A stretch of 61,964 nucleotides of DNA, counting the filler, from Hausera hauseri (taxonomy: Eukaryota), in assembly GCA_046269625.1 (NCBI GenBank). It is 10 parts of 10 records of this genome, joined end to end, with 100 filler letters (N's around TTAATTAATTAA, not from the genome) between each part and the next. Parts side by side here need not be neighbours in the genome. Positions count along the whole stretch, not along the records: positions 37,741 to 41,960 come from JBJURY010693327.1; 9 more parts are not named here. One strand, 5' to 3'. This document shows, one piece after another, positions 16,059-50,270 of this stretch. The notes under the pieces are model-generated. The model saw only the letters and a program-made list of their open reading frames with translations. It made no database searches and was not told the origin of the DNA. Positions within the stretch are counted from its first letter, which is position 1. Every line of letters starts with the position of its first letter. The position numbers and the translations under genes were made by a program.

Positions 16059-16092
16059 CTTTATCTGGGGAATTATACATTCCTTGTTACCG

Positions 16093-20100: not shown

Positions 20101-21117
20101 AACTGCCCTTGCTTTCTCCTCCATAACCCTTCTTTTATTTCCGACAACACTCTGTCACGGTGTGTTCTTCTTCTCGCCTTTTCTTCCCAATACTTATCTA
20201 ATTTCTCTTGGGCTGACTCTTTCTTAGTTTTCTCGGTTATGTTCACTGTTTCACATGTTGATGTGTCAATTTTGTCTAGCTTTGCTACTACACATCCTTT
20301 TTGTAGTGTTATAGTCTTTCCAGTATAATTGACAATCATTACTGGTACTTCTCTTTTTTGATCTAACGTCACAATCCCGCACACTGTTTGTAGACCGGGT
20401 TCTTCAATTATCTCCTTCTCCTCTAGTGGTGTTACAGTCACATTCTCCCCTTCACGCCAGTAACTATTTCTTTTTAGTGACGCCACTACGATATTTACCG
20501 AGTTTGGTTTCATTGTTATCTTTCTTCTAACTCGCACTATGGAAGCTATATGTATATCATTCTCTAAGTCTACGTACTGATCTTCCACTTTTATTTTCTT
20601 TAGGTCGAAATAAATTCTCACATTGTGCTTTTGGAGAAAATCTCTCCCAATGATAGCGCTTCGACACATGTTACGAACTATCAGAAAACCGTGTTTCATT
20701 GTTTTCCCTCCAATATGAAATTCCAGTATGGTCTTTCCTAAAACTTTCAATGCACTTCCAGAGACCGATCTCAAATCAACATCCTGTTTTATTAATTTTC
20801 CTTTGGCCTTCAGCATTCGGTATACCCGTTCGCTTAGGATGCTGACCTGCGCACCAGTATCTACTAAACATCTGACTCTTACTTTTCCAAAGTGTATGAT
20901 GCATGAACTCGGATCTTCTATTACATTTATTTCGTATTGTTGTTTCTGTTTCCTACTTCGGTCGCATTCTTCTCTGATGTCTTCTGCTTTCAATTGTTTG
21001 GGCCGGGGACGTTGTTTTTTCGGAATCTGGGTGTGGATATTATTGACCTTCTTGTTTTCAGGACGGGGTGGGAATAGCTTTGGGGTTTTCTCTTTGTTCC
21101 ATGTAACTTGCCTCTGG
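17185..21117 (-). CDS. pol: Gypsy pol (PR-RT-RNaseH-IN) with two small indels
   Basis: CLVDTGAQ; RFCVDYRALN; YIDD; YTDAS; HHDKLGH..C..C; SLD..VTDNG..NGVNER; FEVGDKV..WIPGY. Frame breaks at the T8 run near 19772-19779 and near 17470-17490. Confidence 0.95.
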
Positions 21118-21643
21118 TTTCATCCACTTCCATAGGTTCAGGTCCACTGTGCTTCTTCTTCTCTATTCCGTCTCGGCACTTTTGCACTGCTTCCCTTCTC
21201 GTTTCCATGTTAGTTTTCTCACACTGTTGGTTCACCTTTAACCCTATTCTACCCTTTCCGATTTCTTTGCCTTTATCCGTCTCTCTGCTTTTCATCACAG
21301 CATATTTTCGGTGATTGTTCCTTTTAACTGGGGTGTAGTCAAACTTGTTATTTTTCGAATTCACCGTTCTTCTGGTCTGACCGTAACTTCTACTACTTCT
21401 TCCATAGCCTGTTCTGTAATAATTTCTTTTCATATTTTCTCTTTCGTTATCGTTTCTCGGCTTCTCTCTTTTGTAGTTCGCCTCGTTCGGTTCCTTTTGC
21501 TTCATGTTTCCAGTCTTATATTTTTCTTCTTTTCTTAGTATTGGTCTGCTATTTCGATTTCTAATTTCTCTTGAATTGTTGATGGCTTCCTTTCCTTCCC
21601 TGCTCCGTCGGAAGCTTAAATCACAGCAGGGTTTCCGTTTCCC
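20990..21643 (-). CDS. Basic low-complexity ORF between gag and pol, in the -1 frame of gag
   Basis: K/R/N-rich with a PEPMEVD motif; overlaps the gag end and the start of the pol frame. Confidence 0.6.
   Translation of the reverse strand, partial: GKRKPCCDLSFRRSREGKEAINNSREIRNRNSRPILRKEEKYKTGNMKQKEPNEANYKREKPRNDNERENMKRNYYRTGYGRSSRSYGQTRRTVNSKNNKFDYTPVKRNNHRKYAVMKSRETDKGKEIGKGRIGLKVNQQCEKTNMETRREAVQKCRDGIEKKKHSGPEPMEVDETRGKLHGTKRKPQSYSHPVLKTRRSIISTPRFRKNNVPGPNN
21585..21643 (-). promoter_or_regulatory. -1 frameshift signal: G GGA AAC plus H-type pseudoknot
   Basis: Minus strand reads GGGAAAC-ggaaa-CCCTGCT-gtgatttaa-GCTTCC-gacgg-AGCAGGG-aaggaaa-GGAAGC. The heptamer is in the gag frame and both stems are perfect. 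Confidence 0.8.
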
Positions 21644-22497
21644 TGTTGCCTCGGAATTCGACCTTCTTCTGTACTGTTTACTTTGCACACCCGGGCAAAA
21701 TGTCCGGTTTTTCCACATCTGTAGCAACTTCCGCTATTTCCCGTTCTTGGTCTGTCACTGCTCGGTTTCGCTGTTCGGCTTCGGCATTCCCTAGCGAAAT
21801 GTCCTGGTTTTCCGCAACTAAAGCACTTCCTTTCCTTTTCAACCTCTTGGATCAACTTCCGGTTGTCATACCGCCTTTCTCTATGATGTTCATGTTCGTG
21901 CTGTCTTCTATGCCACTTAGGTCTGCATTGATCGATGTCCATTTGTTCTTCGTTTCGATCGTCGTGTCTTTCCCTTCCTAACCTCATGTTGATTCTTTTG
22001 TTAAAGTTCTCTTCTTCGACTGCCATTTGTATTGCGGTCTGGATCGTTCTCGGTTCATCTTTCATTAACTTAATCTTGATTCTCGTATTTTTCAGACCGT
22101 CTATAAAAATGGGAATCAGCAATTTTCCAGTCTCTTCGGACATGATATTTTGTCCGGTGTACGCTTCCTCAGCCATGTTGAGCATTCTGTCCCCGTACAG
22201 TTGTACTGCTTCCTCTCGTTCTTGTCTGATCTTTCTTAGCGCTGCCACCGCATAGTGTGAATCGCTCACCTCGGCATATCTATTGGCAAGTGTCTTCTTA
22301 AATTCTTCCCAAGTTTCATCTGGGTATGCCATAAATCTTCGTCGGATGAAGTCGTTGGCCAAGCCATCCGAAGTCATATAAGCCAATTCCTTTCTCTCAT
22401 CCTCTGTGGCCTTGACTAAGTACGCGTATTTCTCAATCTGAGACAACCATGTCTTGAATGTTTTGGCTTCCCTTCCACTAAACGGCTGAACAAAGGT
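21616..22497 (-). CDS. gag: Gag with two CCHC zinc knuckles, 5'-truncated by contig end
   Basis: TWEEFKKTLANRY; IRQEREEAVQLY; FIDGL; EQMDID; CFSCGKPGHFAREC and CYRCGKTGHFARVC. Confidence 0.93.
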   Translation of the reverse strand, partial: TFVQPFSGREAKTFKTWLSQIEKYAYLVKATEDERKELAYMTSDGLANDFIRRRFMAYPDETWEEFKKTLANRYAEVSDSHYAVAALRKIRQEREEAVQLYGDRMLNMAEEAYTGQNIMSEETGKLLIPIFIDGLKNTRIKIKLMKDEPRTIQTAIQMAVEEENFNKRINMRLGRERHDDRNEEQMDIDQCRPKWHRRQHEHEHHRERRYDNRKLIQEVEKERKCFSCGKPGHFARECRSRTAKPSSDRPRTGNSGSCYRCGKTGHFARVCKVNSTEEGRIPRQQGNGNPAVI

Positions 22498-22597: not shown

Positions 22598-23722
22598 TTT
22601 AACATTCGCTCTACTTCCTTAGTTATCTCTGGTCTCAATGAATGAGGAGGCGGGTACCACTTGGGCATTTTCTGTTTTTTCTAGATCGATTTTGTCATTT
22701 TAGCCGGGTTTCTTTCTTAATTGAATCGTTAATCTCAGGACTTTAGCTCTGCCTATATATTCCTCATTTTGCGCAATTATTGAGCTATACTTACATAATA
22801 GTTCGTAGAATTTGCAATATGCTTCAGGATAGAATTTGGTTTCAACATGAGGTGGAAATTCAGCGTACTTATATGGTTTTTCTTCAATTATTATTGCCGA
22901 TACTCTACAAGTGTGACCTGTAGTAGTGTTGGCGTGCAATCGTACGAAAGTTGGTGCACACTTCACTAATCTAATGGGTATACGTCCCATTACTACTCTA
23001 CATAGAATATTACTAAGCATGAGGTTTGAATCGACATTCTCTTGCGGTTCGAAATATACTGGTAAATCTTCATCGTGACGAATCTGCGCAAAAATTATCA
23101 TTTTAGTTCTAGGCGGCATGTCCTCATCCACTGGAATCCATACTTCGCCTGATTTCCTTTCATTTATTACTTTTGTCTCTTTTATTGGTTCGAGCTCAAT
23201 TAATTTTCCATTATGCACATCGATTGCTATACCTGGTATCTGTTTTAATACGTCACAACGCAGTACTACGTCATCTGTTAATTGGTTCATTACCGCAAAT
23301 TCATGTGGAAGTGCTTGGCCCATCATATAAACGGTAGGGGTCCACTTAAATTTCGGCTTCAATACCTGTCCAAATGCTCCTACGCTACCTGGGTAAGATG
23401 ATGCGAGTGGACATAGCTGCTCCCGCAATGTGGTTGGTATCGATTCGTATTTTATAAACGATTTTTTTGATCCTGTGTCGATTAGCGCATACACTTCTCA
23501 ATCTTCGATGTGTATTTTGGCGAAAGGTCTTCCTTCTGCTACTGTTCCGTAGCAATTCGACACTATCTTTGACCGTTTTATAGTGTAGACTGTATGTACA
23601 TTTATCGTTATTTCTGGTGATGAAATGATATCCTGCCTTAATTTTCTTAAATCTTCATTCGGGTACAAATCGTTATTTGTTATTTCCGTGACGCGGTCGT
23701 CAATGAGCGGTTCTTGAGGCAA
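22598..23722 (-). pseudogene. Retroelement aspartic protease and start of RT
   Basis: RPFAKIHIE*..YALIDTGSKKSFI..HEFAVM..DVVLRCDVL; beta-rich spacer; ELLCKYSSII..IGRA; then YPPPHSLRPEITKEVERML at the contig end. Confidence 0.8.
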
Positions 23723-24149
23723 GGGACCTGAGATTGAACATAACCTCGAGTTCTCCCAGATCGTTGATTTCGATTCTATGTGACGAGGTATCCTTTTTGA
23801 GTATAATATTCCGTGGTCGTTTTCCGTTGGTCTTTTGTTGATAATGTTGATTTTTCGTAATGCTCCATATTGTTTTGTTTTTCCATAAGGGTTTTCATAG
23901 ATACAGGATCTGTAAGATATGACTGACTTTTAATCGCAGTTCTTGTAAATCGGCGCGGTTGGTGGCATGATGGGTATTGGTACATATGTTCTGTCTAACT
24001 TTATTCTGGAATTTCCTTCTCCTTCCTTAGGCTCCTCATCATCTGAGTCGTCTTTCCGCATTATTGCTTTTTATTTTTGCGTTTATTAAGAATCGAGGGT
24101 CTTTCCCGTCGTTTGCGATTGTAATATCCGACACGACGTTCTACATTAT

Positions 24150-25990
24150 TTTTCCATCGATTTTCTTCGTATGCTTTAAGCATTGTTTCGAAAGGTGTTA
24201 TAATTGCGGTTAAAATCTTACAGGAAAATCCGGTTAATGTGAGTATTTCGTATCCGTTTACGATAGCTTGTATACTGCTTTAATTAATTGTACTAAGACG
24301 TAGATGGCTAAGAATCCAGATGCAGCTTGTCCGATAATTAAAAATCTTCCCCAAATCTTGTACAATATTTCGGAAGTTACTTTTTGGTAGTGATTTGCGC
24401 CAAGTAGGGATTCCCACTTAGCCTGATATCGGGTGTCGTCTACAACCGAGGTCACGGCTCAATTTAATTCATGCGTTCATTGTCAGGGAAACGCGAGAAA
24501 TTGTCTAAAGGCTTCGATTTTCTTAGGCCTATATATGCCTTTTGATAAAGTGTCCTGAAATTTATCATCCGTATTTCCTCTCGCATGATTTGTTCCTGTT
24601 AATTTTTTCGAGGTAGCAGTAATACCTCCATTCGGTAAACTGACCCAGTCTGTCTCACTACGTCTAAACATGGGTTCTCCTAAGCTCGCTTTACAATCTT
24701 TAAGGATAGTAAGTTGGGTTGCATTATCAAATAATACTCTCGTCAATGGTGTAGCTAATGTGGAAACGTTTTGATAGATAACCGGAAGTTCCTGGATGCA
24801 ACATTTTTCTTCTACATTGACGGGTACATCTCTCTTCTCACATTCATAAGTTAGTAGTACTTCGCATGTGATACAACCAAAAATTTCCTCTCTCATAAGA
24901 ATGATTGGAGAAGCCAGTTCCGGATTGGCGTATATAAGAGCCAGTTTTGTCCTCATGATCTCAGTATCCAGTTTACAGTCATTTGTTATTATTTTGTGGT
25001 ATTACTAGGTTATTCCAGTTTGTCCTTTGTAATAGAAATAATCATCTCTATTCTTCAGGTAGTCCTCAATTCTGATATCTTGCGTTTTTATAAACTTATA
25101 AGTCCTTGCATTTATCTCAGTTTCAGCTACGAAGAGCGCTTTGTAGTTAGTATCAAACATCACCACATCACGTGACATTATTTCCTTCTTGATAAATTTT
25201 AGTCCACGCTGATCGGAGATTAATATGGTAGGCGTAGGATGTTCTAATACATCCTCGCGCGTCCTTGAATTGGTATCCAGTTTATCCACGTATCTTTTTC
25301 CGGTTGTTTCATTAAACTTAAGTTCTTTAATTTTAATAAAATTACAGCTTCTTGCTGAGGGAGGTTTCCATATTATAACCGAGCTCCTAAAAGCACAGGT
25401 CCCACCTTGTAAATGGCATTTTTGATTCTCCGTATATAACTTGGTGACACTATGAAACATTACTATCCTTGTTCTCATTTCTGATTTGTAGAAATCCACA
25501 ACTACTATATTTGTTCTAATCCTTTACCAGTATCATATTCAGCTCCACTACAGTGTCCAATGTACATGTCTAACCTTCCGCCTACCACTTTTTGTGCTCT
25601 AATTATTTTACCAGCTTGCATTTCTAATTCTATATTGTCGCATTGTACTCTTCCAGTCTCTTTAGCTTGTTTGCAGTGCTGCCGTTCCAAGTTCATGGGA
25701 ATTGGAGGAGTTGTCGGTTTGATTATTGAAGAATGTCCGAGTATTAACCCACAGTGGAAGATACTGCGAGATCGTCACAACATGCATTCCATTCCGTCTT
25801 GTGATATCAACTCTTGTTGATAATATAAGAAGTAATTCTTCTCTCTTGTTTCTAATTTGTGTGGTCGGGCATCTTCGCACGCCTCCAGATCCATTAGACA
25901 ATATCTTTCACCCATCTTAAATTTATCACAGTCGTATATAGTGACTGCTCCTAGCTGTTTTACTAACATCATTATTGTTAACAAATTGAC
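24150..25990 (-). pseudogene. Class III fusion glycoprotein (herpes gB / chuvirus G-like env), frameshifted
   Basis: Signal-like LLTIMMLVKQLGA then IYDC..YCLMDLEAC; LERQHCKQAKETG; C..QGGTC..VIIW; NPELA..EVLLTYEC..CIQELPV..TPLTRVL; TM KIWGRFLIIGQAASGFLAIYVLVQLIK. Confidence 0.78.
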
Positions 25991-37091: not shown

Positions 37092-37640
37092 AGTAGTTAG
37101 AAGGGAGGAGTTGGCACCAACCCCCCTCCCCTCAGGGAAGGAAGGAAGCCAATAGAAGAACACGTCATCGAGGGAAAGGGAAACTGGCGAATGGGAGGAA
37201 GCCACGTCATGGTGGAGAAGGAAGTAAGCCAATAGGAGTAGAGGACCAATCAGGGAGCATTGGTGCCAACTGGGTTTCACTATTCCCACCCCTTTAATGA
37301 GAAAAACATAAGAAAAACATTTACATAACATTTACAAATCTTTATTTATCCAAATAGTGATTGATGAAATAATCTGATTCAGTTTTGTCACTATGGAAGA
37401 CAATTCATATGACAAATACGTTAGATGTCGAATTCTCTTTTCCATTGGTGTTTCTTCTGGAATCCATTCAAATTGGACTCGTAACGTGTCATTTGTTAAA
37501 TCTAAGTATTGTAATGGGAAAAATTTTGGAAAACCACTTGGAATGTTGAGTTCACTTTCAGGTTTTATATAACAAAGCGGACTGCTGTCTGTTGTTATTT
37601 GGTTTGAACATATACAATTGCCTATTTCATTAAGTAGTGA
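37092..37640. mobile_element. Probable Polinton/Maverick terminus (TIR) with the 3' end of an ORF running toward it
   Basis: Abrupt GC-rich block starting AGTAGT (a known Polinton terminal motif) with three CCAAT and two CACGTCA motifs; a minus-strand reading frame runs from the contig end to about 37335. Confidence 0.55.
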
Positions 37641-37740: not shown

Positions 37741-38143
37741 TCAGGTTCGCCTCGCACATTGGGCATTCGTCTTCTTCTTTTGCCCAATTCTCATCGTCTA
37801 GGTCCACTCTCAACAAAATCTCAATAGGCTCTACTATCAACCCTTCTTCATCTTGATACAAACAAGCGTATATTCTTTTTTGCTTTGGGTTTATTGAGCT
37901 TTTTTTAGGATCGCATCCGACAGCTATTAGGGTCCAATCGCTGATAGTATCTCGATCTAAATCTGGAACTTCACCAGTCGATCGGTATTTCTGGTATTGT
38001 TTCTTCAGCAGCAGTTTAACTGATTTATCCACAAAGACTAAGATTTTGCCATTCCGTTTTGACTGAAATATCGGGGCAACATATCTTCCAATTTTGGGAT
38101 TTTCCCAGACATAGGTATTCTCGTAGACTTGTCTGGCAGGCAC
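37741..38143 (-). CDS. Unknown accessory ORF of the LTR element, 3'-truncated
   Basis: Open globular-looking ORF; shares a QKYRSTGEVP-like motif with the ORF at 39210-39968. Confidence 0.45.
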
Positions 38144-38715
38144 TAGTTTAACAAAAACATTGCTTCTTTAATTTTCTGTTTGCTGTAATACTCTGTAGCT
38201 ATTAGCATCCTGGGATAGTCTGCTGCAGTGGCATAGTGGACATTTTCTGTGGATGTCTTCTTTCGCAAGACGTTTATTTCGGTTATTCATTCTTTTTGCT
38301 TGCTTGTTTTCTCCATGGTTTTCTCGACATGGGGCTGCTTGTTTGGTCTTAAGGTTTCCTCAGCTGATGGTTTCAATTTTGAATCTTTTTTCTCTGCCCT
38401 GGGTTCAGTCTTTAATCATTTTTTGACTTCTTTACTTTTCTTCTTGAATAAGTAGTCAAAAAAGAGGTTTTCCTTTTTATTGTTTTACCGCTTTCAGTCT
38501 CTGACCTTCTCTGTTTCTCTTCTATGTATTTCCGGGGTATTTCTGATACCTTAAATGAACTATTATTTGCTATAGCATCATAACTGGTACTGGGTCTTTC
38601 ATTGGTACATGCTTTATTTTCTGTCCCCTCCATTTTCAATCCTTGGATGGTTATTTGGTAGTTCCATTCTGGTTTGATTTCGACGTTTCTGGGTGGAGAG
38701 TAAGAGCGAAAATGT

Positions 38716-39310
38716 CTACGGTATCGTGAGCTGAGCCCTTCGGAAATCGGAAATTTCCTTTAAATTTTGTCCGGGGTTACTGGGAATCCATTCGTGTTCC
38801 CACTTTAACCCAGCATTTATATCTCTTAGATATTGTGATCTTTGACTTGCGGATAGTACTCTGCTTAATTTTATATTTTCTCCGGTCATGGCCTCTACCA
38901 TTAACTTGAAACGTCCTTCCATAATCAATGGTATGTGGCTCTTTTTTTCTTCTACCTTATTTCCCAGTTGTCTCATAATAGTCGTGTGGGTTTCTATTTC
39001 TCTTACTCCGGCTATATATGTTATCAGTATGGCCAACTTCCTCATTATGCTCTCTATTTTATACCCCACTAAGACGTATCCATAGAGGCATTGCGTTACT
39101 TCTTGTTTTACTAATTTGAAATCCTTTCCATGATTCAGATGCTCTCTTTTAATTCCGGTAATTTCTGCTTGCGTTTCAAACACTTTTTGTCTTGGATTGA
39201 TGATTTTGATTAGACTTCAATCCCGTTTTCTTCTCGGATGGATATTTCGATAACAAAGTAGTTTCGTTCTTCTCCTTCCATATAATTTATCGCGACGATT
39301 CTGAGATTTC
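38716..39310 (-). pseudogene. REX4/ISG20-like DEDDh exonuclease domain with degenerate catalytic residues and a 1-nt frameshift
   Basis: RIVAINYMEG..VIEISIREENGIEV / KIINPRQKVFETQAEITGIKREHLNHGKDFKLVKQEVTQCLYGYVLVGY compared with REX4 ALDCEMVG..RVSIVN..G..DKYVKP..V..TAVSGIRPENL..G..VQKEV..LKGRILVGH. Confidence 0.7.
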
Positions 39311-39968
39311 TCTCGTCAACCAACAGTCTGAACGAATGTAAGTGGGTATCTTGTTCCTTTTTCGTAGGCCTTTGACTAAACTCTAAAGGTGGTAACGATA
39401 TAGGTATTTCTTCTTTTTCTGTGGTTGCGATCATCATTTTTACTGGTAAGGCGGCTATGCGAAATTCCAATTCGTGATTTGTGAGGCGCCTACTGTTGAA
39501 TACAAAGGTACTAAACCGGCTTTGCCTACCTTGGAAGGAATCCCATTTTTGATCCTTCAGTCCATAATAAATTTTCCCGTCTGCCAAGTGCACATAAATT
39601 TTCTGTTCCTTCTCTGGTTGGTACTGAGCGATTGGTTTGAAAGGGTATGCCCTAGAATCTTTATCTTCCCTCCATGCGTACAAATATACTGCTCTAGCTT
39701 CCTCGGTTGTTCCTTTTAGCCCATTCGGTATTTCGCCCACTTTTCTATACTGCACGAAGCTTTTTCCTTGTAATTCTGTGTTTATTTTCCTATAGACGGC
39801 CTTTGAATTTGGGATCCGCACTGTTACGTAGTTTTGTAGAAATTCGTCGATACTAAGTCGACTAGTCATTTTCTCCGTGTCGATCCTAAGTTGGCTCGGG
39901 ACTTCCTTGGCGTCGATGCTAATTCGGCTTGGTTCAATCTGGGTCTGAGTACTTACCAATCTGAACAA
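39210..39968 (-). CDS. Accessory ORF: unknown N-terminal domain leading into the exonuclease-like domain
   Basis: 252-aa open frame whose C-terminus carries the ExoI-like strand. Confidence 0.55.
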   Translation of the reverse strand: MFRLVSTQTQIEPSRISIDAKEVPSQLRIDTEKMTSRLSIDEFLQNYVTVRIPNSKAVYRKINTELQGKSFVQYRKVGEIPNGLKGTTEEARAVYLYAWREDKDSRAYPFKPIAQYQPEKEQKIYVHLADGKIYYGLKDQKWDSFQGRQSRFSTFVFNSRRLTNHELEFRIAALPVKMMIATTEKEEIPISLPPLEFSQRPTKKEQDTHLHSFRLLVDERNLRIVAINYMEGEERNYFVIEISIREENGIEV

Positions 39969-40058
39969 AAGAACATAAAGGTTAATCTTAAAACAAAGGA
40001 TGATTTTAAACCAAAACCAATTCTTTGTGTAATGACAGAATAACCTGATCTGTAAATA

Positions 40059-41400
40059 TCAGATTATTTTATCATATGGATCTACAGGGTTCTCCAATTT
40101 CCTTATTTCCCATTTTGAATTTTTATGACGCTTAGAATAACAGTTTTTGGTGACTAATCGGAAAATCGCAATTAGTATAATGAGAACAAATGTTGACAGT
40201 ACCGTGATAGATACGATTGGTAGTGTAGTTAGTCCTATCGGTGCTTGTGTGTTCACTAGAGTTTTGATCTGCTCATCTATATCCTCATGTGTATGGGATT
40301 CTGTGCGAATCTCATCTAAAGTTTGCAATGTAACGGTCTGATTTTGCTTATTTTCCGCACATATTTGTACTATATATTCGGTTTGTGATTTTAATAGATT
40401 GCACTCTGTTTGATAAGTATTTTTAAATAATGTCACCACTTGATTATTATACGTTGTCCGACAACTTATGTATATATTGTAATTTTGTTTCTCTTCCACG
40501 AAGAACACAATCTTAGACCGATATGCCGAATATTTAATAGGGATACTTCCTAATTCTCTTTTTTGCATACTGGCCGATGTGATGGTTGACGTAATGGTAT
40601 TAATTTAAGTAGCTTATCTTCTGGTGGTCGTCGTTACTGAAATTTCCCAATTTCTGTTTTCTGGATAGTAAGTTCTCAACTGTATACTTGGTTTATTCGG
40701 CCTTACTTCATATAAGTCAAATCTTATTTTGAATTCCCGGTTTACGGGTATTTTACAGCATGGTTTTTGCACGCCTGCTCGAATAGAACAATATTCTATT
40801 TTCGGGGTCGGTCCAACTGTTGCTTCAAACGTGATCCTAATTTCCTGACTGAAAGTTAATCCTGTTCTAACGTCTACTTGAATGCATCGTTTGTCCTTAT
40901 TTACAGAGATTCTCTGGATATTTTCGTCTAATATTCTTATATCTGAGTCGGTAGATCGTAATATTTCATTCAGTTTTACTCCATGATGTCTGTTCCATGA
41001 AGGGATAATTAATTGAGAATGTGGCTTTGTTTCAATATAAGCTTCGGATGAATTTGGTAAGTATAGACGATAGGTGAGGTTATACGTGCGTCCAAAATCT
41101 ATGTCTCAGAACTGCATATTTTCTGGGGTTCGAAATCACAATTTTTCGTGGCTTTTGTGGTTAAATCAAGCAAGACAATTTGAAACCTTCCGAAATCGTA
41201 ATGCGGTTTCCAAGTTTTAAATCCAACGCATACTGCGTTTGGCGATTAATAGTGAACTGTCATCGACTGTAACAATTTAATATCTTTTTGTCTTTGAATT
41301 CCTATAACTGTTGGTTTCTTTTCCGATTTAACTGTTTCCGCTTTTGATCAACTCTTCCGAAGTCCATATATATCTCCTAACGTAGATTCGTCGTGCCACC
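40059..41400 (-). pseudogene. Type I membrane protein with fibronectin type III-like domains, decayed
   Basis: Beta-rich ectodomain with FN3-like C-terminal signatures (DIDFGRTYNLTYRL; CNLLKSQTEYIVQICAEN); TM LPIVSITVLSTFVLIILIAIF; basic stop-transfer sequence. Confidence 0.6.
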
Positions 41401-41446
41401 ATTACGCTTGTATTCTTGGGATGTAGGAGGCAATCAACGATAATGC

Positions 41447-41960
41447 TTAAACTATTTGAACATATGATATTGGTCTAGTAACTATCGACGAAGTTTTTAC
41501 CTCACGTTGGCGTAAATTATAACGTTTGCTGGGTCGTATTTCTGTCTTGACAACTCTCTGTATTGACACAACTTCTTCTTTTCCATTTTTGTTGACATAC
41601 ACTGTGGCTGGCGTGACTCTAGTGACTTCATACGGTCCTCTACCCGTACGAGTCAATTTTAGTGAGGTGCCTTTTTTGGCTACTGGATAATGTACATAAA
41701 CCCAGCTTCCTGATTCCAGGTCATGTGGTTTCGCTTTCTTATTGTATTGTCTTTTAAATTGCTCTTAATATTCTTGAGATAATTCCTTGGCTATTTCCCA
41801 ACACTCTTGCATCTGTTCTAAACTTTTTGGGATTAACTGTGTATGGCGTCATTCCTAAGTTCGTGGGCAACACGGCTTCACGTCCATACATCATAAAAAC
41901 GGCATAAATCCTGTTGCTAGATGTGGCGCAATATTAATTGCAAATTGCGTTCCTTCCAAA
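41447..41960 (-). pseudogene. Gypsy integrase C-terminal region
   Basis: QFAINIAPHLATGFMPF; KRQYNKKAKPHDLESGSWVYV; LKL..GRGPYEV (GPY motif); KRYNLR. Confidence 0.88.
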
Positions 41961-42780: not shown

Positions 42781-45700
42781 ATTGACTCTTTACCCACCAT
42801 TTTTGAAACTGACAAAACTACCTCTAAACCATCACATTTTGCTTTTCACCCGAAATAAACGACCGTAACCACGCCATCTACTTTCACCAGTTATACATCT
42901 GCCATCTCGCCAGCTAAACACACTTCTTCTCAGTGACGGAATATTTGATTGATTAGGAAAAATCGAGCAAAACCTGGCTCAGCTTTCACAAACTTTGGCT
43001 GCAGTCTAACAACATTACTGATCCCTAAGTAAAAGCTCATAGTTTACTTTACCTCTTACCAAACACAGTAAAGACTTCTCTTCACGACATTTTAGTTGTT
43101 TTTTAATAATCCGACCCGTACACAAATCTCTATAATGCAGTTTTAAAATTTACCGAATAGTATATGGATTCCATAATCCATAGATTCTTTAATGATAACG
43201 CCATTGGAACACAAAAACCTTCTGAGTCCCTACGTACGTTGTTGTCTCATCTACAAACGCTAAGTGTAACTAGGCAACATAATTCAGACCTTCTGTGACG
43301 ATATTTCTTAAACGCTTTGCCTATACAAATTAGAGCACTTCTTACCGTTGTAGAGGAATCTACGGCGTTTGATAAATTGGCGGAATTGGCTAATAAATTA
43401 CATGAAGTGCTACAATTGAATTCCCAACCAATTGTATCAGCAGCAGTCGCAACAAGCGACAATCAACATAATACAACAATAGATCAACAGTTGAGCCAAT
43501 TACGCGCTGAAAATGTAGCACTACAACAGATAATACATAGATTTAATAATAAGTTGCACGATCTTTCATTACCACACCGAAGTGTTCCTATTCATATTCA
43601 TAATTATTCTGTTTCCAGAAATAGGTCACCATTGCCTACACGATCATTTGTGTGCTATTATCATAGAAAATTTCACATTAAAGCTAATAAGTGGTGTTTA
43701 GATTGTAGATATTGCACTCCAAATTTACATTCAAACAAGATTTTTTGCATCTGCCATGCGAAATTTTGATTCCACGCTCCGAAATGTCTTTTAGGCTTCA
43801 ACTATAAGAACAACGCTAACCATACTACCGACAGACGTTCTATTTCCCGTAGTAATAGTCGGCTGAGCTCATCAATGCAAGAAAACTAATTTCGCTGCCC
43901 GTACCCATGGCAGAGTCTGGCAAAGGCAACTTCTCTAATACAATCTGCCGACACACTTCTTTTTCAGTCTTAACACTAAAGGCTTCGATAACCACACCAA
44001 CAACTCAATCCATAGATTTCCTTATCGACACAGGCGCTGCGGTTTCTTTGCTACCACTCACTTTCCCTGCACAAAATTCACCGTTCAAAGCTAAATCGTT
44101 ATTTACGGCTTCAGGACAACCGCTAGACATTTCAGGTACATCTAAATTGTCGTTCATCTTACCAAACTTTCAGTCCACGTTTCATTGGACGTTTACCATC
44201 GCTAACGGCTTCACAGCAATCCTAGGTTCGGATTTTTTATCGCACTCTAATCTTTTAGTTGATTGCAAACAACAATGTCTGAAACATAACACTACTGGAT
44301 ATCCTACCAAGCAAATAAATAGTATATCCGCTAAGGCACAAACGATCTTCTCGCGGAAGCCTGTACTCAAAAATCCTGTAAGTAATCCAAACTTCTTGAA
44401 CAAGCATTTTTCATTTCGTAAATTTTTAATGATAATTTCGATATTCAGTCGAGATTTGGTTTTGACAACTACGATTGTGTTGGTTCAGTACATTCACTAG
44501 ACGAAATTACATCTTCAAACACTATTTTTAATACTACTATCCTACACCAAATTCCCCTTAATTGCAATAACTCACAAACATCACTCGTCACTGCACATAT
44601 TGACTCAACACCATCACCATCACCCAATCTCTCACATTTAGCTGCAAGTCTACGGAAATACATACGCACTGCATGCCCCCGCTTAATCCAGAATGACCGA
44701 ACCTTCACATCTACAAACAACACTTTTCATCACATCATAATGCAACACCAAATACTTATTCTGCAAAAGGTACGTCCATTGTCACCTCGTCGTAGGCAAA
44801 CTGTCGAAACGAAATTTCTAGACCTTGAACGCTCCGACATTGTACGCAGATCTAAATCGTCGTGGTTTTCGCCTTTAGACGTTTTCTAAAAAAAGATGGA
44901 TCCTTTCGACCATGCGGTGATTACCGTCAGCTAAACACTTTAACTGCTATGTATGCACACGCTTTACCATTAATTAAGGATAACCCGCACAGGCTCAATT
45001 CCACTACAGTATATTCAACCATAGACTTAGACAAGACATGTCATCAAATTCCTGTAGCACCCTAAGACAGCGAGAAAACTGCAGTTACGACATCTTTCGG
45101 CCTGTAAGAATACATTGATATGCCTTTTGGTTTACGCAACGCTGCGCAGACTTTCCAACGTCACATCGATTACATCCTCTCGTATTTCACTTTCGAGCAT
45201 CCATATATCAACGATTTCTTGATTGCTTCGTCTTCAACCAAACAGCATGAGGAACATCTTCCTTCTATTTTTCAACGACTTAACAACCATAATTTACAAA
45301 TTAATTTTACGAAATGTCACTTCTTCCAAAGGCGTATTAACTTTCTCGGACACATCATTTCGGCAAATGGTCATTATTCTCAATCAGAACGTGTTAAAAA
45401 TCTCAAAAGTATACAAATACCCCGAAAAACAACAGAAATGAGGAGCTTTTTGGGAACTTTGTACTTCGTTCACAAGTATATGCCGTACTGCTCTGAACTT
45501 ACAGCACCATTTGCTTACTTAAGCGGCGGCAAAAAACATCTGCCAATCCAGTGGGCACTTGACCTGGTTGATAAATTTGATAAGCTACGCGAAGGAATCA
45601 AGATCGTCGACATTCTCGCTTTCCCCAAGCCTGATGCGGAACTCATTCTTACTACAGACACTTCAACCACTGCGGTAGGTGCTGTGCTTTACCAAATACA

Positions 45701-47411
45701 CAAAGAAGAAAATCAACCACTAGAATTTTTCTCTCGTAGGCTAACATCCCTTGAAACTTGATATTCAACGTTCGATTGAGAATTATTGGCCATAATTCTC
45801 GTTTTAAAGCATTTGTCCCACCTACTTGTCGCTCGCCGTTTTACCATACAGACCGATCACAAGCCCTCGCTAAACATCATGACTATAAAACATCCTTCCT
45901 CACGCCAAGAACGACAGATATCATATCTGTCGACATTTAACTTTGACATTAAACATATTAACGGGATTAATAATTTGGTTGACGATTTCCTATCTAGGAC
46001 CGTTGGTTCGATTAATTTTTCACCAATCTTCTCTCAAGTATAACTCTAACAGAACCAGTCACCTCAGGACATGCTTAATTCTTTTAAGTCTTATACAATT
46101 GTTGACGGCGTGGACTTAGACAATTCCAAACCAGGTCATTCCGTAATAATTCTCGCGCCACCTTTGCAATGGCAAGCTTTTAACAGTGTACATTCACCGA
46201 ACCATCCTAGTGCTAAGGCAACTTTTTGCTTACTCCACTGGCAAGTAATGTGGCCAATTATGCGTTCTGGTATGCAAACTTGGATTAAGGAGTGCGTGGC
46301 TTGCCAGAAATTTAAAATCACCAAACATTTGAAGCCACCACTATATAATTTCTCTTGCACATCACGTTTCGAGTCTGTTCATGTTGATCTCGTTGGCCCT
46401 CTTCCTCCTGACAACCGTCATTAGTTCATTTTGATCACGATGGATCGTTCCTCACGTTGGCCAGAAGCTATCCTATTACGGAGCACTAACATGTACACAA
46501 TAGCCGACGTTTTCATACGCACTTGTATCAGCATATTTGGATTCTCTAGATTCATTATTACAGACCAAGGTACTCAGTTTGAGTCCAATTTGTTTAAATT
46601 TCTCTTTAACCGATTAGGAATCAGCCATATACACACATCACTGTATCACTCCCAATCGAATTGTCTTCTGAAGATATTATAGAGAACACTAAAAACGTCA
46701 CTGAGAATCCTCGCAGAATCCAATAGCAGTTGGACTACTCTTCTTCCGTTTGTTCTTCTGGGTTTGCGTAACATCCCTTCTACTTCTACTGATTGTTCAC
46801 CTACGGAAGCCCTCTTCGGAACACCTGTACGTTCATTATTTGAGTTAACTGCCTTGAAGATACACCGACAGACGAAGCTATCCGAACGGCACAGAATCAT
46901 TTTGTCTCAGTCAGTAAAGATTCATTCTGCAGGATAATAAATAACAATAAAACGTACTTACCAGAGGATTTATATTTGGCAAAGTTAGTCTGGCTGAGAA
47001 ATCAGACGCCGTGCGGTTTTCAACCACGGTATTTGGACCTTACAAACTCGTTCAATTGCATTCCCGCAATGCCATTATTTCAAAAGACGGTAAGGAACTA
47101 TCGGTGCATATCAAAAATGTAAAGCCTGCTTTTTGCGTAGATGATACCCCCTGCCCAAATTGCATCTCCTACCCCCCCTTTTGACTCCTCCACCTTTTCC
47201 TCCTTCCGTTCCTCCACCACCTGCACCCATTTCCATGCCGACCCCTATTTCTACTTCTCTATAAGAATCTCCTCCAATATACAATTCTACTACCCTAACA
47301 ATTTTAGTCCCTTTTCTCCTACATTTTATCCTCCATCTTCTTCCCAGTCTTTGTACCACACAACACCTAACACGACCAAATCCGATTTTACTGTATCTCA
47401 ATCACCTCAAC
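42589..47411 (+). mobile_element. Ty3/Gypsy retrotransposon, heavily decayed (copy B; same family as 5041-8440)
   Basis: Gag LPIQIRALLTVVEESTAFDKLAELA; CYYHRKF; FLIDTGAA; RPCGDYRQLN; MPFGLRNAAQTFQR; TDHKP; integrase VHVDLVGPLP, RWPEA, IITDQGTQFES, GPY. Confidence 0.95.
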
Positions 47412-48049
47412 NNNNNNNNNNNNNNNNNNNNNNNNNNNNNNNNNNNNNNNNNNNNTTAATTAATTAANNNNNNNNNNNNNNNNNNNNNNNNNNNNNNNNN
47501 NNNNNNNNNNNGAATTTAAATTAAAAATGTAATATTAAAAGTATAATTTAATTTTGGAATTGTCGGAAAATTTGTTTCCAAATGAGTAATTTGAGATACA
47601 ATAAAATTTTCTACAACTGGTGTTACTTTGCAATGAGTAATTACAAACGATCAAATTCTGCTTTAGCGGACATACCAGGGGGCAGAGATTTTCCAACCCT
47701 GCTCAAGCTGGGTGGCGATGTGGACGGCGTGGTTGCGCCCGCGACCAATACCCTTAGTTATCTGAGTATGTAGAAGTGTCAGGTCCACCGCACTTCTCTG
47801 ATTGGTCAATCGACGAATCTGCGCATCTGATTGGTTAATCCGCACATTTAAAATTTTCTCACGACCTCCCTCCACGGTGGGAAAAGCTTCGAACATCGGA
47901 CCGACTCAAATCGGTAGAGCTCAACAAGCTGAGCAAAAGTTAATAGTTGTGTGGCTTACAGAAATGTAAGGGAGAGGCGCTAGAAGAGGAAGAAGCAAAA
48001 CAGAAAATGCTCCACGTGTAACGCAAAACATGTTGCTAGCACAGAGAAA

Positions 48050-49520
48050 ATGTGTACAAAGGGTAAATTGATTTTGACAAATCCTATGGACACGGTTGCA
48101 ACTCAATCAGACCATGGGAACATGGAGAAAAATCGATGGGAAATTTTCAAACGGGGAAAATTTCCCCTTGCACAATTCAAACGGCGGTGGAAATTGGTTG
48201 AGCATGTAGCCCATCAAAAGTTGAGCATTTCATATTATTGCCGCCTCACGATCGAACGAAAGGATCCAGGTGAATACGGCAACCGAACAAACAAACGAAC
48301 CGAAAAAACGCATTTTCAACCCTTGCCGTACGGTTCATTTGACTGGGTTGTCGAAAAACCGGAATTGCGTGCATTAATAGACAGTCTGCGTGTAGCAAAC
48401 ACGAAAGAAAGCAGCTCAGTAGGCTAACTGATGGAAGTCGATCTCGTTGTTCCATATGAGCCGCATGACGCTCTGGACGAATTACCCGTAGCACCAATTA
48501 GCCAATGTCCACCCAGCGGCTCAATAAAAGTAAAGAAACTGCTCATGACGCATGAACCAAAGCTGAATTACGTGGTTCATTGGCGTCTGCTGCAGTTTTA
48601 CATGGAGCTCGGTGTGCGTGTCACACAGCTTCATTGTGCAATCCGCTTCAATCAGGCGCCGATATTTAAGGCGTACACTGATGGAAATTTCTGGACACGA
48701 GCCGCAGCTTGTAAAAAGTTCGAAAAGGACTATTACAAGTTGAAAAATAATTTTCTTTACGGCAAAGCGGTAGAGAACCTCAAAAGGCAGCTCAATGTGC
48801 TCCTTTGCAACAACGAAAAGCGGCTGGTTACGTACACCAGCAAGGCTCAGTTCAGGCTGTCAATGCACATTGCCGACGGATTAGTCGTCGTGCTTGTACC
48901 GGCCAAGCTACATTGGAGATGTGGTATTGGACTTGAGCAAGTTGCGAATGTACGAGCTTCAGTATCGCAAGTTGGAACGTTACCGGCAAATGTTCGGAAA
49001 GGGCTGTGAGATCAGTATCGTTGCCGGTGACACAGACAGCTTTTTCCTTGAGCTGAAAAACATCGATCGGGACCAACTACACCGGCAAATGATGTCAAAT
49101 GGACTACTGGACACGTCCAACTACCCACAGAACCATCCACTATACGGCAGCGCGATAACAAACAAAACAGGTTGCTTCAAGGACGAAAGTGAAGGCCGGG
49201 TTCAATAAAGGAAATGGATTTTCCTACGCCCAAATGCTACAGTCTTCTGACGGACTTTGGGCCGAAAATGCGGGCCAAAGGCATCCAGCTGAAACAGACG
49301 GAAATAAATCACAGTGATTATCGCCGTGACTATAATGGACAAGAAGACGAAGAAGACGGAGGAGGCGGAAAGGCTGTTGTGTCTCAAACGACCATACGAT
49401 CGACTGAGCACTAGCTGTATACAATTACAAATAGGAAGGTTGCTTTGTCATGCAACAATGACAAGCAAAAGTGGGTGGGGCAAAATAAGAGTTGGGCGTA
49501 CGAAAATTGGCGGTTGAAGT
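48050..49520 (+). pseudogene. Polinton-like pPolB, internally deleted and decayed
   Basis: QPLPYGSFDW; EVDLVVP..HD..ELPVAP; KKLL..K.NYVVHWRLLQFY; KDYYKLKNNFLYGKAVEN; RPSYIG..VLDLSKLRMY; GDTDS; DTSNYP..HPLY..GCFKDE; PKCYS; RAKGI. Confidence 0.9.
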
Positions 49521-50270
49521 AAAGCACATACATTGCACAGTCAGGCAGCTCAGACCAAGTACAATCAGTCAGACAGTCATTACAATTTATAAAAACTATG
49601 ACACTTACTGTCATATTATTTAATGAATAATGCATATTTCTTCACGTATTTTGTTTTGTTTTGTTTTGTTTTTTTAACTTCACGTATTATTATTTTTATG
49701 TATGACATTTAATAAAATAACGAATTGAGAGAAAAGTAAAATCAATAATTTATTAATCATAAAACACAAAAAAGAAAGCAAGTTAAATCAAACTAAATTT
49801 GCCAAATTTCCACATTGGGGATTTAACGCCACACATTTCTTTGTAGCTTTTCAATTTCAGCGTCAAGCAGCCTTTAGCACCTTTGGATGTCAAAGTCGTC
49901 GCTTCTGATCTTGTTGTTGTTGTTATTGTTTTATCATTATTTAAACGACAATATTTTTCATATTGCCCTTGAGAAAAAAAGATGATGTGTCCCGAATACC
50001 ATTGGACAACACCAAATCACTGTCGACCTTTTTTAGCGTACGTTCCATCGTATCCAAATCACTGTCGCTGATTTTCTTTGCCAACAAACCGTATTTTACA
50101 TGTTTGAGTTTGACCGGTTGCGCCAATGACAATAGAATGAGCGTTCGTAGGTAGTTCAATTTGTAGCCATTGTACAACCGAAACGGTCTGACCAAATATT
50201 GATTATATCGTGGTTGACTTGCAGCAGCAGAATTCAAATCTATTAGTGCTTTATTAGAATTCACTGCCGT

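What the first reader, a model, noticed from the sequence alone, without database searches (positions are those of the whole stretch)
37741..41960. LTR retroelement with a multi-gene accessory region: FN3-TM protein, pseudo-exonuclease and unknown ORFs
Seen: downstream of a Gypsy integrase end there are more than 3.7 kb of co-oriented coding sequence with no LTR before the contig ends. It comprises an FN3-like type I membrane protein, an ORF ending in a REX4/ISG20-like domain, a basic low-complexity stretch and another globular ORF. Known: DEDD exonucleases occur as extra ORFs in some nematode and bdelloid rotifer LTR elements, and very large LTR elements are described in planarians. Inference: this is a giant, virus-like Gypsy with a surface or adhesion protein in the env position and possible anti-silencing cargo.
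Basis: partly seen in the sequence, partly recalled or inferred. Interest (0 to 1): 0.72.

Follow-up and report, generated by a model that had tools for sequence, protein, structure and literature searches.

The report
Retrotransposon carrying adhesion-like and ubiquitin-ligase genes
This is a decayed copy of a many-copy Gypsy-type retrotransposon that has, where an envelope gene would sit, a fibronectin-like membrane protein followed by one large protein joining a disabled exonuclease to a ubiquitin-ligase RING finger, which may help the element counter host defences.

Summary
The anatomy is real, but the gene count and "giant" are not supported. The 4,220-base contig is a decayed copy of a multi-copy repeat: 6,022 contigs of one public run and 415 of a second organism's run lie on it.

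After a Gypsy-like integrase end come two accessory genes, not four. The first is a ~460-aa type I membrane protein. It probably continues the pol frame through a signal-like stretch. Its membrane-proximal domain is FN3-like, and it shows no class I or gB fusogen marks.

An intact 870-aa relative, P0003, aligns across all three at 40% identity. It reads: unknown domain, DEDDh exonuclease fold without catalytic residues, basic linker, unknown domain, C3HC4 RING finger. The contig ends inside that RING, so the missing LTR is just truncation.

The element is at least ~4.1 kb longer than a plain Gypsy; nothing shows a Burro-size element. The best guess is a membrane anchor or adhesin plus a nucleic-acid-guided ubiquitin ligase acting against host defence. 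That function is inferred, and no single molecule links integrase to RING.

The parts
41450..41960 (-). C-terminal end of a Gypsy-like integrase: end of the core, GPY motif at 41638-41630, SH3-like region and basic tail. Broken by frame changes near 41900 and 41820 and a stop at 41767.
   Evidence: Six-frame reading. X-joined comparison with two window integrase ends, 0 of 2000 shuffles reaching either score. No Pfam or PDB hit.
41428..41470 (-). Signal-peptide-like hydrophobic stretch in the integrase frame. It spans the stop at 41449-41447, which is private to this copy.
   Evidence: Second-highest hydropathy peak, 1.73. At 41448 none of the laid depth in X1 (56 contigs) or X2 (15 contigs) has the window's letter.
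40059..41449 (-). Accessory gene 1: type I membrane protein of about 460 aa with up to three beta-sandwich/FN3-like units, a stalk, a TM helix and a short tail. Broken by one frame change near 41126 and internal stops at 41404, 41350, 41248, 41108, 40616 and 40607.
   Evidence: ORF pieces. Other copies differ at 2 of the 6 internal stops among the 40 places shown, and have length differences near 41126.
41027..41281 (-). Putative FN3-like unit 1 (inferred from an FN3 strand-F-like motif only; crosses a frame break)
   Evidence: Motif scan written by me from recalled FN3 pattern. Unit-to-unit similarity weak: global U1-U2 reached by 32 of 2000 shuffles.
40664..40946 (-). Putative beta-sandwich/FN3-like unit 2
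   Evidence: Beta-sandwich in a low-confidence model, mean pLDDT 38. Best VIA Z 4.6 with FN3 chains among tied rows: inconclusive.
40316..40553 (-). Membrane-proximal FN3-like unit 3
   Evidence: Atlas features 0.91, FNDC9/fn3/cytokine-receptor rows. Weak PDB hit to a neogenin domain, E 0.52.
40161..40217 (-). Transmembrane helix
   Evidence: Kyte-Doolittle 2.92 over 19 aa and 2.98 over 15 aa.
40059..40160 (-). Cytoplasmic tail of about 30 aa ending in Y-x-x-I and the true stop of gene 1
   Evidence: A divergent set of 4 X1 contigs keeps the Tyr, the Ile and the stop at the same places (loose-end table). Reading Y-x-x-I as a sorting motif is recalled knowledge.
39951..39975 (-). Pyrimidine tract + CAG (ends 39961), then 4 nt, then GTAAGT (39956): a splice-acceptor-like site followed by a donor-like site ahead of gene 2
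   Evidence: Only GTAAGT on the coding strand of the contig. CAG-N4-GTA is kept in one divergent X1 contig and one X2 contig. Splicing itself is not shown.
37741..39869 (-). Accessory gene 2: one ORF (about 820-870 aa when whole) from a Met at 39869 to beyond the contig end. Frame breaks near 39211, 38742, 38443 and 38153; stops at 38418 and 38289.
   Evidence: Frameshift-aware alignment to intact P0003: residues 58-754, 267 of 673 aligned positions identical.
39320..39851 (-). N-terminal domain of gene 2, conserved, no known family
   Evidence: 40-44% identity to P0002 and P0003. No Pfam, PDB or PHROG match.
38790..39299 (-). DEDDh-superfamily exonuclease fold without catalytic acidic residues (pseudo-nuclease), split by the 39211 break
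   Evidence: Profile hits: DnaQ 9.8e-6, PolC 7.7e-5, ISG20L2 0.0017, SDN1 0.02, ISG20 0.55, which are 5 of 5 hits at E<=1. PHROG 192, 1.1e-4. Atlas 0.89, a lead only. Motif residues.
38200..38790 (-). Basic, poorly conserved linker of gene 2
   Evidence: The matching P0003 residues 431-615 are 20% K+R.
37780..38200 (-). Second globular domain of gene 2, no known family
   Evidence: 47% identity to P0003 residues 623-754.
37741..37765 (-). First C-x-x-C pair of a C3HC4 RING finger, cut by the contig end
   Evidence: Aligns to P0003 residues 746-754. The P0003 RING scores 30.8 bits on PF00097, cut-off 21, and hits RING E3 ligases in the PDB.

Best explanation
The contig is the 3' half of a decayed copy of a multi-copy Ty3/Gypsy-type LTR retrotransposon family with two accessory genes. 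SHOWN: gene 2 is one protein, [unknown domain]-[dead DEDDh fold]-[basic linker]-[unknown domain]-[C3HC4 RING], kept in at least three lineages 40-53% identical. Gene 1 is a type I membrane protein with an FN3-like membrane-proximal domain. The breaks that could be checked are lesions of this copy. INFERRED, likely: gene 1 is translated as a continuation of pol and released or targeted by an internal signal peptide. Gene 2 is made from a spliced subgenomic RNA using the acceptor at 39961. INFERRED, best guess for function: gene 1 is a non-fusogenic membrane anchor or adhesin, or a receptor decoy, that tethers particles or particle-bearing vesicles to cell membranes. Gene 2 is a counter-defence E3 ligase whose dead nuclease fold binds nucleic acid or a nuclease partner and whose RING ubiquitinates a host silencing or restriction factor. 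My odds: architecture about 0.85, counter-defence ligase about 0.45, adhesin or anchor role about 0.5.
For: One intact 870-aa relative covers all three 'ORFs', and P0002 also runs in one frame across the 39211 junction. 4 of 4 frame breaks lie within 15 nt of a length difference seen in other copies; 6 of 200,000 random placements do as well. RING above the Pfam cut-off. DEDDh family in 5 of 5 profile hits. The first-motif acidic pair is absent in 3 of 3 relatives, so the loss predates this copy's decay while the fold is kept. Multi-copy coverage of 30 of 30 bins in X1 and 29 of 30 in X2. Contigs cross the integrase/gene 1 junction (41448, up to 82 letters from a contig end) and the gene 1/gene 2 junction (40003, up to 93 letters). 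A-rich coding strand throughout (A 0.37-0.39), like the neighbouring Gypsy pol and env. Precedent: accessory DEDD ORFs and spliced ORF3 messages in bdelloid LTR elements, and inactive DEDD folds that keep RNA binding in piRNA factors (PMC5408684). RING and ubiquitin-related domains in planarian Burro elements (PMC6431247).
Against: No record spans integrase to RING; the listed pieces are under 300 aligned bases. No DNA context was obtained for P0002 or P0003, so they are not shown to sit in LTR elements. Summed depth over gene 2 (125-3,373) is lower than over integrase plus gene 1 (1,066-8,812); this may be divergence or copies lacking gene 2, and the tool warns depth is no copy number. The length differences at the breaks are often a minority of the laid depth (39203: 74 of 274; 38152: 58 of 498 in X1 but 17 of 19 in X2). 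Only 4 of 10 internal stops appear among the 40 of 1,482 difference places shown. The pol read-through is checked only at its first stop, and a search for pol-fused relatives of 406-2000 aa found none among 946 candidates. Both structure predictions were poor (mean pLDDT 34 and 38). Pfam fn3 is not hit. No binding, ligase or adhesion activity was tested.
Confidence: 0.6

Rival explanations
1. Gene 2 belongs to a separate repeat (a nested element or endogenous viral sequence) that sits behind this Gypsy in only some copies.
For: Lower summed depth over gene 2 than over integrase and gene 1, and no long bridging record. No context for P0002 or P0003.
Against: Contigs cross the gene 1/gene 2 junction, where depth is among the highest (bin 39997-40137: 8,544 in X1, 241 in X2). 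The genes abut on one strand with the same base bias. No transposase or polymerase domain in P0003.
Confidence: 0.12
2. Gene 1 is a true envelope substitute, an unrecognised fusogen (for example class II-like, which also ends in an Ig-like domain, stem and TM), making the element infectious.
For: Env position, signal-like start, ~390-aa beta-rich ectodomain with 9 Cys, TM and a Y-x-x-I tail. Folds too poor to exclude it.
Against: No Baculo_F or Monjiviricetes fusion hit, though both families detect neighbouring elements in the same search. No R-x-K/R-R site in the pieces scanned. No internal hydrophobic peak above 0.7 between signal and TM. Atlas rows are cellular FN3 and cytokine-receptor proteins.
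Confidence: 0.12
3. The RING/pseudo-nuclease protein acts on the element itself or on competing elements (Gag or RNP turnover, copy-number control) rather than on host defence, in the way human PML-I promotes L1 ORF1p degradation.
For: PML joins a RING to a DEDDh-type C-terminal domain and restricts L1 through the ubiquitin-proteasome system (PMC10123124, abstract; the RING in PML is recalled knowledge). The host carries several other LTR families.
Against: The family is highly multi-copy, which fits an enhancer of spread better than a brake. No sequence link to PML among the PDB hits.
Confidence: 0.13
4. Both genes are host cargo captured by transduction and carried passively, with no function for the element.
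For: FN3-TM, DEDDh and RING are all common host domains.
Against: No cellular relative was found. The only relatives were P0002 and P0003 among 1.84 billion representatives and only P0003 itself among 7,257 candidates. An 870-aa uninterrupted ORF survives at 40% identity with shared loss of catalysis, which implies long selection.
Confidence: 0.05

Closest known systems
Bdelloid rotifer Juno/Vesta LTR retrotransposons with a DEDDy ORF3 (Rodriguez et al. 2017, PMC5408684)
   Same: An exonuclease-fold accessory ORF downstream of pol in a Gypsy-like element; ORF3s there are expressed from spliced messages; some families carry TM-containing ORF3s of unknown origin.
   Different: Theirs are RNase D-like DEDDy with catalytic residues intact and no TM or RING reported in the sections read ('RING' 0 occurrences). 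Here the fold is DEDDh/DnaQ-like, catalytically dead, embedded in an 870-aa RING protein, and accompanied by a separate FN3-TM gene.
Planarian Burro/GYPSM1 giant Gypsy elements (as reviewed in PMC6431247)
   Same: Gypsy elements loaded with host-like regulatory domains, including RING (AIR1) and ubiquitin/apoptosis-related domains.
   Different: Burro has an internal region up to 25 kb, one ~4,900-aa polyprotein, and env between gag and pol. Here the cargo lies 3' of integrase, is at least ~4.1 kb, and has FN3 and dead-DEDDh domains not listed for Burro in the passages read.
Metazoan errantiviruses (env-carrying Ty3/gypsy; eLife 2026, PMC13524379)
   Same: A type I membrane protein gene after pol.
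   Different: Their env is F-type or HSV gB-type. 'Fibronectin', 'FN3', 'RING' and 'exonuclease' occur 0 times in the main text and 0 times in 7 supplements. No fusogen family is detected here.
PML / Plex9 DEDDh exonucleases (PMC10123124), and Maelstrom/EXD1 (as cited in PMC5408684)
   Same: Works-like analogues: a RING plus DEDDh-fold protein acting through ubiquitin on retroelements, and dead DEDD folds that keep RNA binding in piRNA silencing.
   Different: These are host genes that restrict elements. Here the pairing is carried by the element, the domain order is reversed (RING at the C-terminus), and no homology to PML or Maelstrom was shown.

Membership tests
Ty3/Gypsy (Metaviridae-like) LTR retrotransposon | Integrase C-terminus with GPY/F motif at the 3' end of pol | tested here: met
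   GPY at 41638-41630. Similarity to two window integrase ends, 0 of 2000 shuffles each. Not detected by Pfam or PDB, so support is moderate.
Ty3/Gypsy (Metaviridae-like) LTR retrotransposon | PR-RT-RH-IN order, RT phylogeny, paired LTRs, PBS/PPT, target-site duplication | not testable with these tools
   The contig starts inside integrase and ends inside the RING ORF. No genome is held. No related locus found.
Ty3/Gypsy (Metaviridae-like) LTR retrotransposon | Dispersed multi-copy family | tested here: met
   6,022 contigs laid in X1, 4,748 of them under 95% alike, and 415 in X2.
Errantivirus (F-type or gB-type env) | Env with sequence homology to baculovirus F or gB/Monjiviricetes fusion proteins | tested here: not met
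   No such Pfam hit for gene 1 pieces or read-throughs. The same search finds Baculo_F at 1.2e-11 and Monjiviricetes_fusion at 1.7e-15 in neighbouring elements.
Errantivirus (F-type or gB-type env) | Fusogen fold | tested here: inconclusive
   Model pLDDT 38; no Foldseek hit at E<=0.001; best VIA Z 4.6.
Burro-type giant Gypsy | Internal region over 20 kb | not testable with these tools
   Only 4.2 kb seen. The longest contigs holding P0002 and P0003 are 12,445 and 16,242 bases.
Burro-type giant Gypsy | Env in frame between gag and pol | tested here: not met
   The membrane protein here follows integrase. Whether a second env lies upstream cannot be seen.
Bdelloid DEDDy ORF3 | Intact catalytic DEDD/DEED residues in a stand-alone RNase D-like ORF | tested here: not met
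   The first-motif D-x-E pair is absent in the window, P0002 and P0003; the second-motif D is absent in the window and P0003. The ORF is multi-domain.
DEDDh / DnaQ-like exonuclease superfamily | Sequence-profile homology over the core strands and helices | tested here: met
   DnaQ E 9.8e-6, PolC 7.7e-5, ISG20L2 0.0017; P0003 alone hits DnaQ at 8e-4; PHROG 192 at 1.1e-4.
REX4/ISG20 subfamily | Closer to ISG20/REX4 than to other DEDDh members | tested here: inconclusive
   The window piece alone ranks ISG20L2 and ISG20 first at E 0.17 and 0.36. The profile ranks DnaQ and PolC first.
C3HC4 RING E3 ligase | Eight zinc ligands in C3HC4 spacing | tested here: met
   Met in P0003: PF00097 30.8 bits, cut-off 21; motif printed. 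The window holds only the first C-x-x-C pair.
C3HC4 RING E3 ligase | E2 binding and ubiquitin transfer | not testable with these tools
   Needs an assay.
Fibronectin type III membrane protein | FN3 domain(s) before a single TM helix | tested here: inconclusive
   Atlas 0.91 with 172 shared features for the membrane-proximal piece and a TM helix. No Pfam fn3 hit, and the two upstream units rest on a motif and a low-confidence model.

The most novel reading that the evidence does not exclude
An undescribed lineage of animal LTR retroelements that replaced a fusogenic envelope with a captured cytokine-receptor-like FN3 membrane protein and encodes its own counter-defence enzyme. That enzyme would be a Maelstrom/PML-like dead exonuclease fused to a RING ligase, which binds small-RNA or retroelement nucleic acids and sends the host's silencing machinery for degradation.
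Probability: 0.3. Interest if true: 0.82.

Novelty: new variant of a known kind. Interest (0 to 1): 0.57.

Why it matters
Extra ORFs of invertebrate LTR elements are mostly fusogens or small enzymes, and their role is an open question. This family offers a specific, testable pairing that five literature searches aimed at it did not turn up. The pair is an FN3-type membrane protein in the env slot and a RING ligase with a dead DEDDh module, with an intact natural relative (P0003) available for biochemistry. If the ligase targets silencing factors, it would be a retrotransposon-encoded counter-defence resembling viral RING ligases. If the FN3 protein tethers particles, it would be a fusogen-free route of cell-to-cell spread.

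Tried and rejected
No whole genome is held for the window. No second copy of the accessory region elsewhere in the window. Scans for loci found no relative: viral contigs with P0003, alignment A2 and the integrase piece, and metagenome contigs with A2 and P0003. The GTDB genome scan was not used. A search for longer relatives of the integrase-tail/gene 1 read-through found none at E<=0.001 among 946 candidates, which is weak evidence. No RNA holder was listed among the 2 runs returned. AlphaFold models of P0003 (pLDDT 33.7) and of the gene 1 ectodomain read with X at stops (38.4) were too poor: Foldseek gave no hit at E<=0.001 and VIA best Z was 4.6. My idea that the two unknown domains of gene 2 are repeats of each other was rejected: hhalign probability 0.2, and 5 of 6 pairwise comparisons were at shuffle level, the sixth reached by 29 of 1000 shuffles. 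Tandem duplication of the three FN3-like units was not shown: 5 of 6 tests at shuffle level. The Pfam 'ZYG-11_interact' hit (E 4.6e-5, below cut-off) covers the stalk and TM and was treated as compositional. Three look-ups of earlier scan notes returned nothing. A recalled resemblance of the integrase-tail motif Y-N-L-R to the foamy virus Gag chromatin-binding motif was not confirmed: I saw only the search listing. One path segment (38446-38742) was read in the wrong frame and was ignored; the open frame there is 38412-38759. The host organism was not determined. Repbase and subscription-only papers could not be searched, and the Burro primary paper was seen only through the review, so an earlier description there is not excluded.


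Full report
Setting. The window is ten contigs joined by N44-TTAATTAATTAA-N44 spacers, and the finding is one whole contig, 37741-41960. Neighbouring contigs are not contiguous DNA and hold no second copy of the accessory region. No genome is held, and the host was not determined. The window is an animal-like assembly rich in LTR elements.

Integrase end. On the minus strand, 41960-41450 reads in three frame pieces as the end of an integrase core, a helix, a GPY motif (41638-41630) and an SH3-like region. Pfam and PDB sequence searches miss it. Read with X at the breaks, it scores 68 against the end of the neighbouring Gypsy integrase (Pfam rve upstream) and 66 against a second integrase end in the window; 0 of 2000 shuffles reach either score. 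The identification is therefore supported but moderate, and no phylogeny was possible.

It is a multi-copy family. Two public runs from two coded organisms hold the stretch. At 80% likeness, 6,022 contigs of X1 and 415 of X2 lie on it, covering 30 of 30 and 29 of 30 bins; 4,748 of the X1 contigs are under 95% alike, and changes are mostly transitions. Listed single contigs have depth 2-25, while summed X1 depth is 1,066-8,812 over integrase plus gene 1 and 125-3,373 over gene 2. The tool warns this is no copy number, and X1 may be the window's own source. Contigs cross the integrase/gene 1 junction (place 41448, up to 82 letters from a contig end) and the gene 1/gene 2 junction (place 40003, up to 93 letters). 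No listed piece is longer than about 290 aligned bases, so linkage from integrase to RING is a chain of overlaps, not one molecule.

Gene 1, the membrane protein. The stop that ends the integrase frame (41449-41447) is private to this copy: none of the laid depth in X1 (56 contigs) or X2 (15 contigs) has the window's letter at 41448. It lies inside a hydrophobic stretch at 41470-41428, the second-highest hydropathy peak (1.73) after the TM helix (2.98). I infer that pol runs on through an internal signal peptide into a ~460-aa type I membrane protein ending at 40059. Other copies also differ at the stops at 41108 and 40616 and show length differences near the frame change at 41126. Three further stops in the first part and one at 40607 are not among the 40 of 1,482 difference places shown, so the read-through is checked only in part. 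A search for longer pol-fused relatives found none. The terminal stop is genuine, because four divergent X1 contigs keep it together with the Y-x-x-I just before it. The membrane-proximal piece scores 0.91 with 172 of 256 shared features against FNDC9/fn3 and cytokine-receptor clusters. Two more units upstream carry an FN3-strand-F-like motif (pattern recalled). Pfam fn3 is not hit, the units are not demonstrably repeats, and the model is too poor to decide (pLDDT 38, best Z 4.6). Fusogen marks are missing: no Baculo_F or Monjiviricetes hit although both families detect neighbouring elements, no furin-type site, and no internal hydrophobic peak above 0.7.

Gene 2, one RING protein rather than three ORFs. 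The 282-aa piece has only two relatives among 1.84 billion representatives: P0002 (333 aa) and P0003 (870 aa), both unnamed single-member clusters from ENA, 53% identical to each other. P0003 aligns across the whole rest of the contig: residues 58-754 to 39851-37742, 267 of 673 positions identical, with frame breaks at 39211, 38742, 38443 and 38153 and two stops. All 4 breaks lie within 15 nt of a length difference listed for other copies (distances 8, 6, 14, 1). Random placement does this 6 times in 200,000, using the 6 listed places in that span; 32 further places were not shown. These differences are often a minority of the laid depth. P0003 ends in a C3HC4 RING (PF00097 30.8 bits, cut-off 21; RING E3 ligases in the PDB), and the contig stops after its first C-x-x-C pair. 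At least 116 more codons follow, so the missing LTR is truncation and the 3' cargo is at least ~4.1 kb.

The exonuclease fold. A profile of the relatives hits DnaQ (9.8e-6), PolC (7.7e-5), ISG20L2 (0.0017), SDN1 (0.02) and ISG20 (0.55), which are 5 of 5 hits at E<=1. PHROGs and atlas features agree (the atlas score of 0.89 is a lead only). Where DnaQ has D-I-E, all three relatives have A-[IV]-N, and neither possible register supplies the acidic pair. The second-motif aspartate is absent in the two that reach it; my placing of the third motif is by eye. The domain is thus an old pseudo-nuclease, not a product of this copy's decay. The N-terminal domain and the domain before the RING match nothing and are not repeats of each other.

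Expression of gene 2. A pyrimidine tract and CAG end at 39961, followed four bases later by the only GTAAGT on the coding strand. One divergent X1 contig and one X2 contig keep CAG-N4-GTA. A Met lies just before the conserved domain in all three relatives (39869 in the window). I infer a spliced subgenomic message. No RNA data were available.

Mechanism. Shown: the domain architecture, its conservation across three lineages, its multi-copy state and the copy-specific nature of the breaks that could be checked. Inferred: gene 1 anchors or tethers particles or vesicles to membranes, or acts as a receptor decoy, without fusing them. Gene 2 uses the dead nuclease fold as a nucleic-acid or protein adaptor and the RING to ubiquitinate a host silencing or restriction factor. 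Rivals are a separate nested repeat, an unrecognised fusogen, self-regulation and passive cargo; each is weighed in its own section.

Comparison with the literature. Rodriguez et al. 2017 (PMC5408684; I read parts 1-2 of 5, the Discussion and term passages) describe catalytically intact DEDDy ORF3s and spliced ORF3 messages in bdelloid LTR elements, and note Maelstrom and EXD1 as inactive DEDD derivatives. Arkhipova and Yushenova 2019 (PMC6431247; passages) describe Burro elements with RING, BIR and MATH domains and env between gag and pol, and set giants at over 20 kb internal. The 2026 errantivirus survey (PMC13524379; passages and a term search of 7 supplements) has no FN3, RING or exonuclease mention. 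PML (PMC10123124; abstract) is a host-side analogue. PMC6338049 and PMC3985635 (passages) added nothing closer. Searches pairing LTR/retrotransposon with fibronectin type III or FN3, or with RING plus DEDDh or pseudonuclease, listed no paper whose title, abstract start or term counts describe this combination; I saw listings only, the top 20 where more were found. Repbase and subscription journals are outside the library.

Verdict. This is a real and unusual accessory region on what is most likely a Gypsy-type element: a new variant of a known kind. It is not shown to be giant or infectious. The RING plus dead-DEDDh protein is the strongest new result. Interest 0.57.

Noticed in passing
window 14091-22497, minus strand: A separate Gypsy element with CCHC gag, protease, a weak dUTPase hit (E 0.0013), RT/RH/integrase, a long charged extension after integrase, and a 670-aa F-type env (Baculo_F 1.2e-11) in gag-pol-env order. 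If the host is a flatworm, this would differ from the statement in PMC13524379 that flatworm errantiviruses carry only gB-type env.
   Followed up: partly
window 22706-25523, minus strand: Broken Monjiviricetes-type fusion glycoprotein (1.7e-15) upstream of a protease-like ORF (weak RVP hit, E 0.11), i.e. env-before-pol order. PMC13524379 reports that order for nematodes, bryozoans and flatworms.
   Followed up: partly
window 43299-47200 and 5674-8440, plus strand: Two decayed, related Gypsy copies (64-66% DNA identity; RT/RH hits). The gag motif recalls the CsRn1 clade (name recalled, not tested).
   Followed up: no
window 2400-4300, plus strand: Intronless, stop-ridden reading frames that look like processed copies of a Miro GTPase gene followed by a clueless-like gene (identities recalled; Pfam gave no hit at E 0.01 for 3462-4073).
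   Followed up: no
window 48428-49006 plus; 9344-12004 minus: Fragments resembling Polinton/adintovirus-type DNA polymerase B (DNA_pol_B_2 E 0.0025 for 48428-49006; no hit for the two minus-strand pieces). Contigs 1-8440 and 47512-52462 share a 68% alike stretch.
   Followed up: no
window 1204-1929 plus; 56956-57564 minus: An intact-looking bHLH reading frame (HLH 7e-17) and a piggyBac-like transposase fragment (DDE_Tnp_1_7 2e-17).
   Followed up: no
window 37100-37300: A G+C-rich stretch with several CCAAT words, a purine run on the minus strand and a 10-base inverted pair, just downstream of a cut ORF at 37335-37640. It may be the end of another LTR element; it lies on a different contig from the finding.
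   Followed up: no
window 41530-41505, minus strand: The integrase tail holds K-R-Y-N-L-R-Q-R, which recalls the foamy virus Gag nucleosome-binding motif (recalled; search listing only).
   Followed up: partly
window 39860-39950: A short degenerate repeat between the acceptor-like site and the gene 2 Met varies in length among copies (joints table).
   Followed up: no
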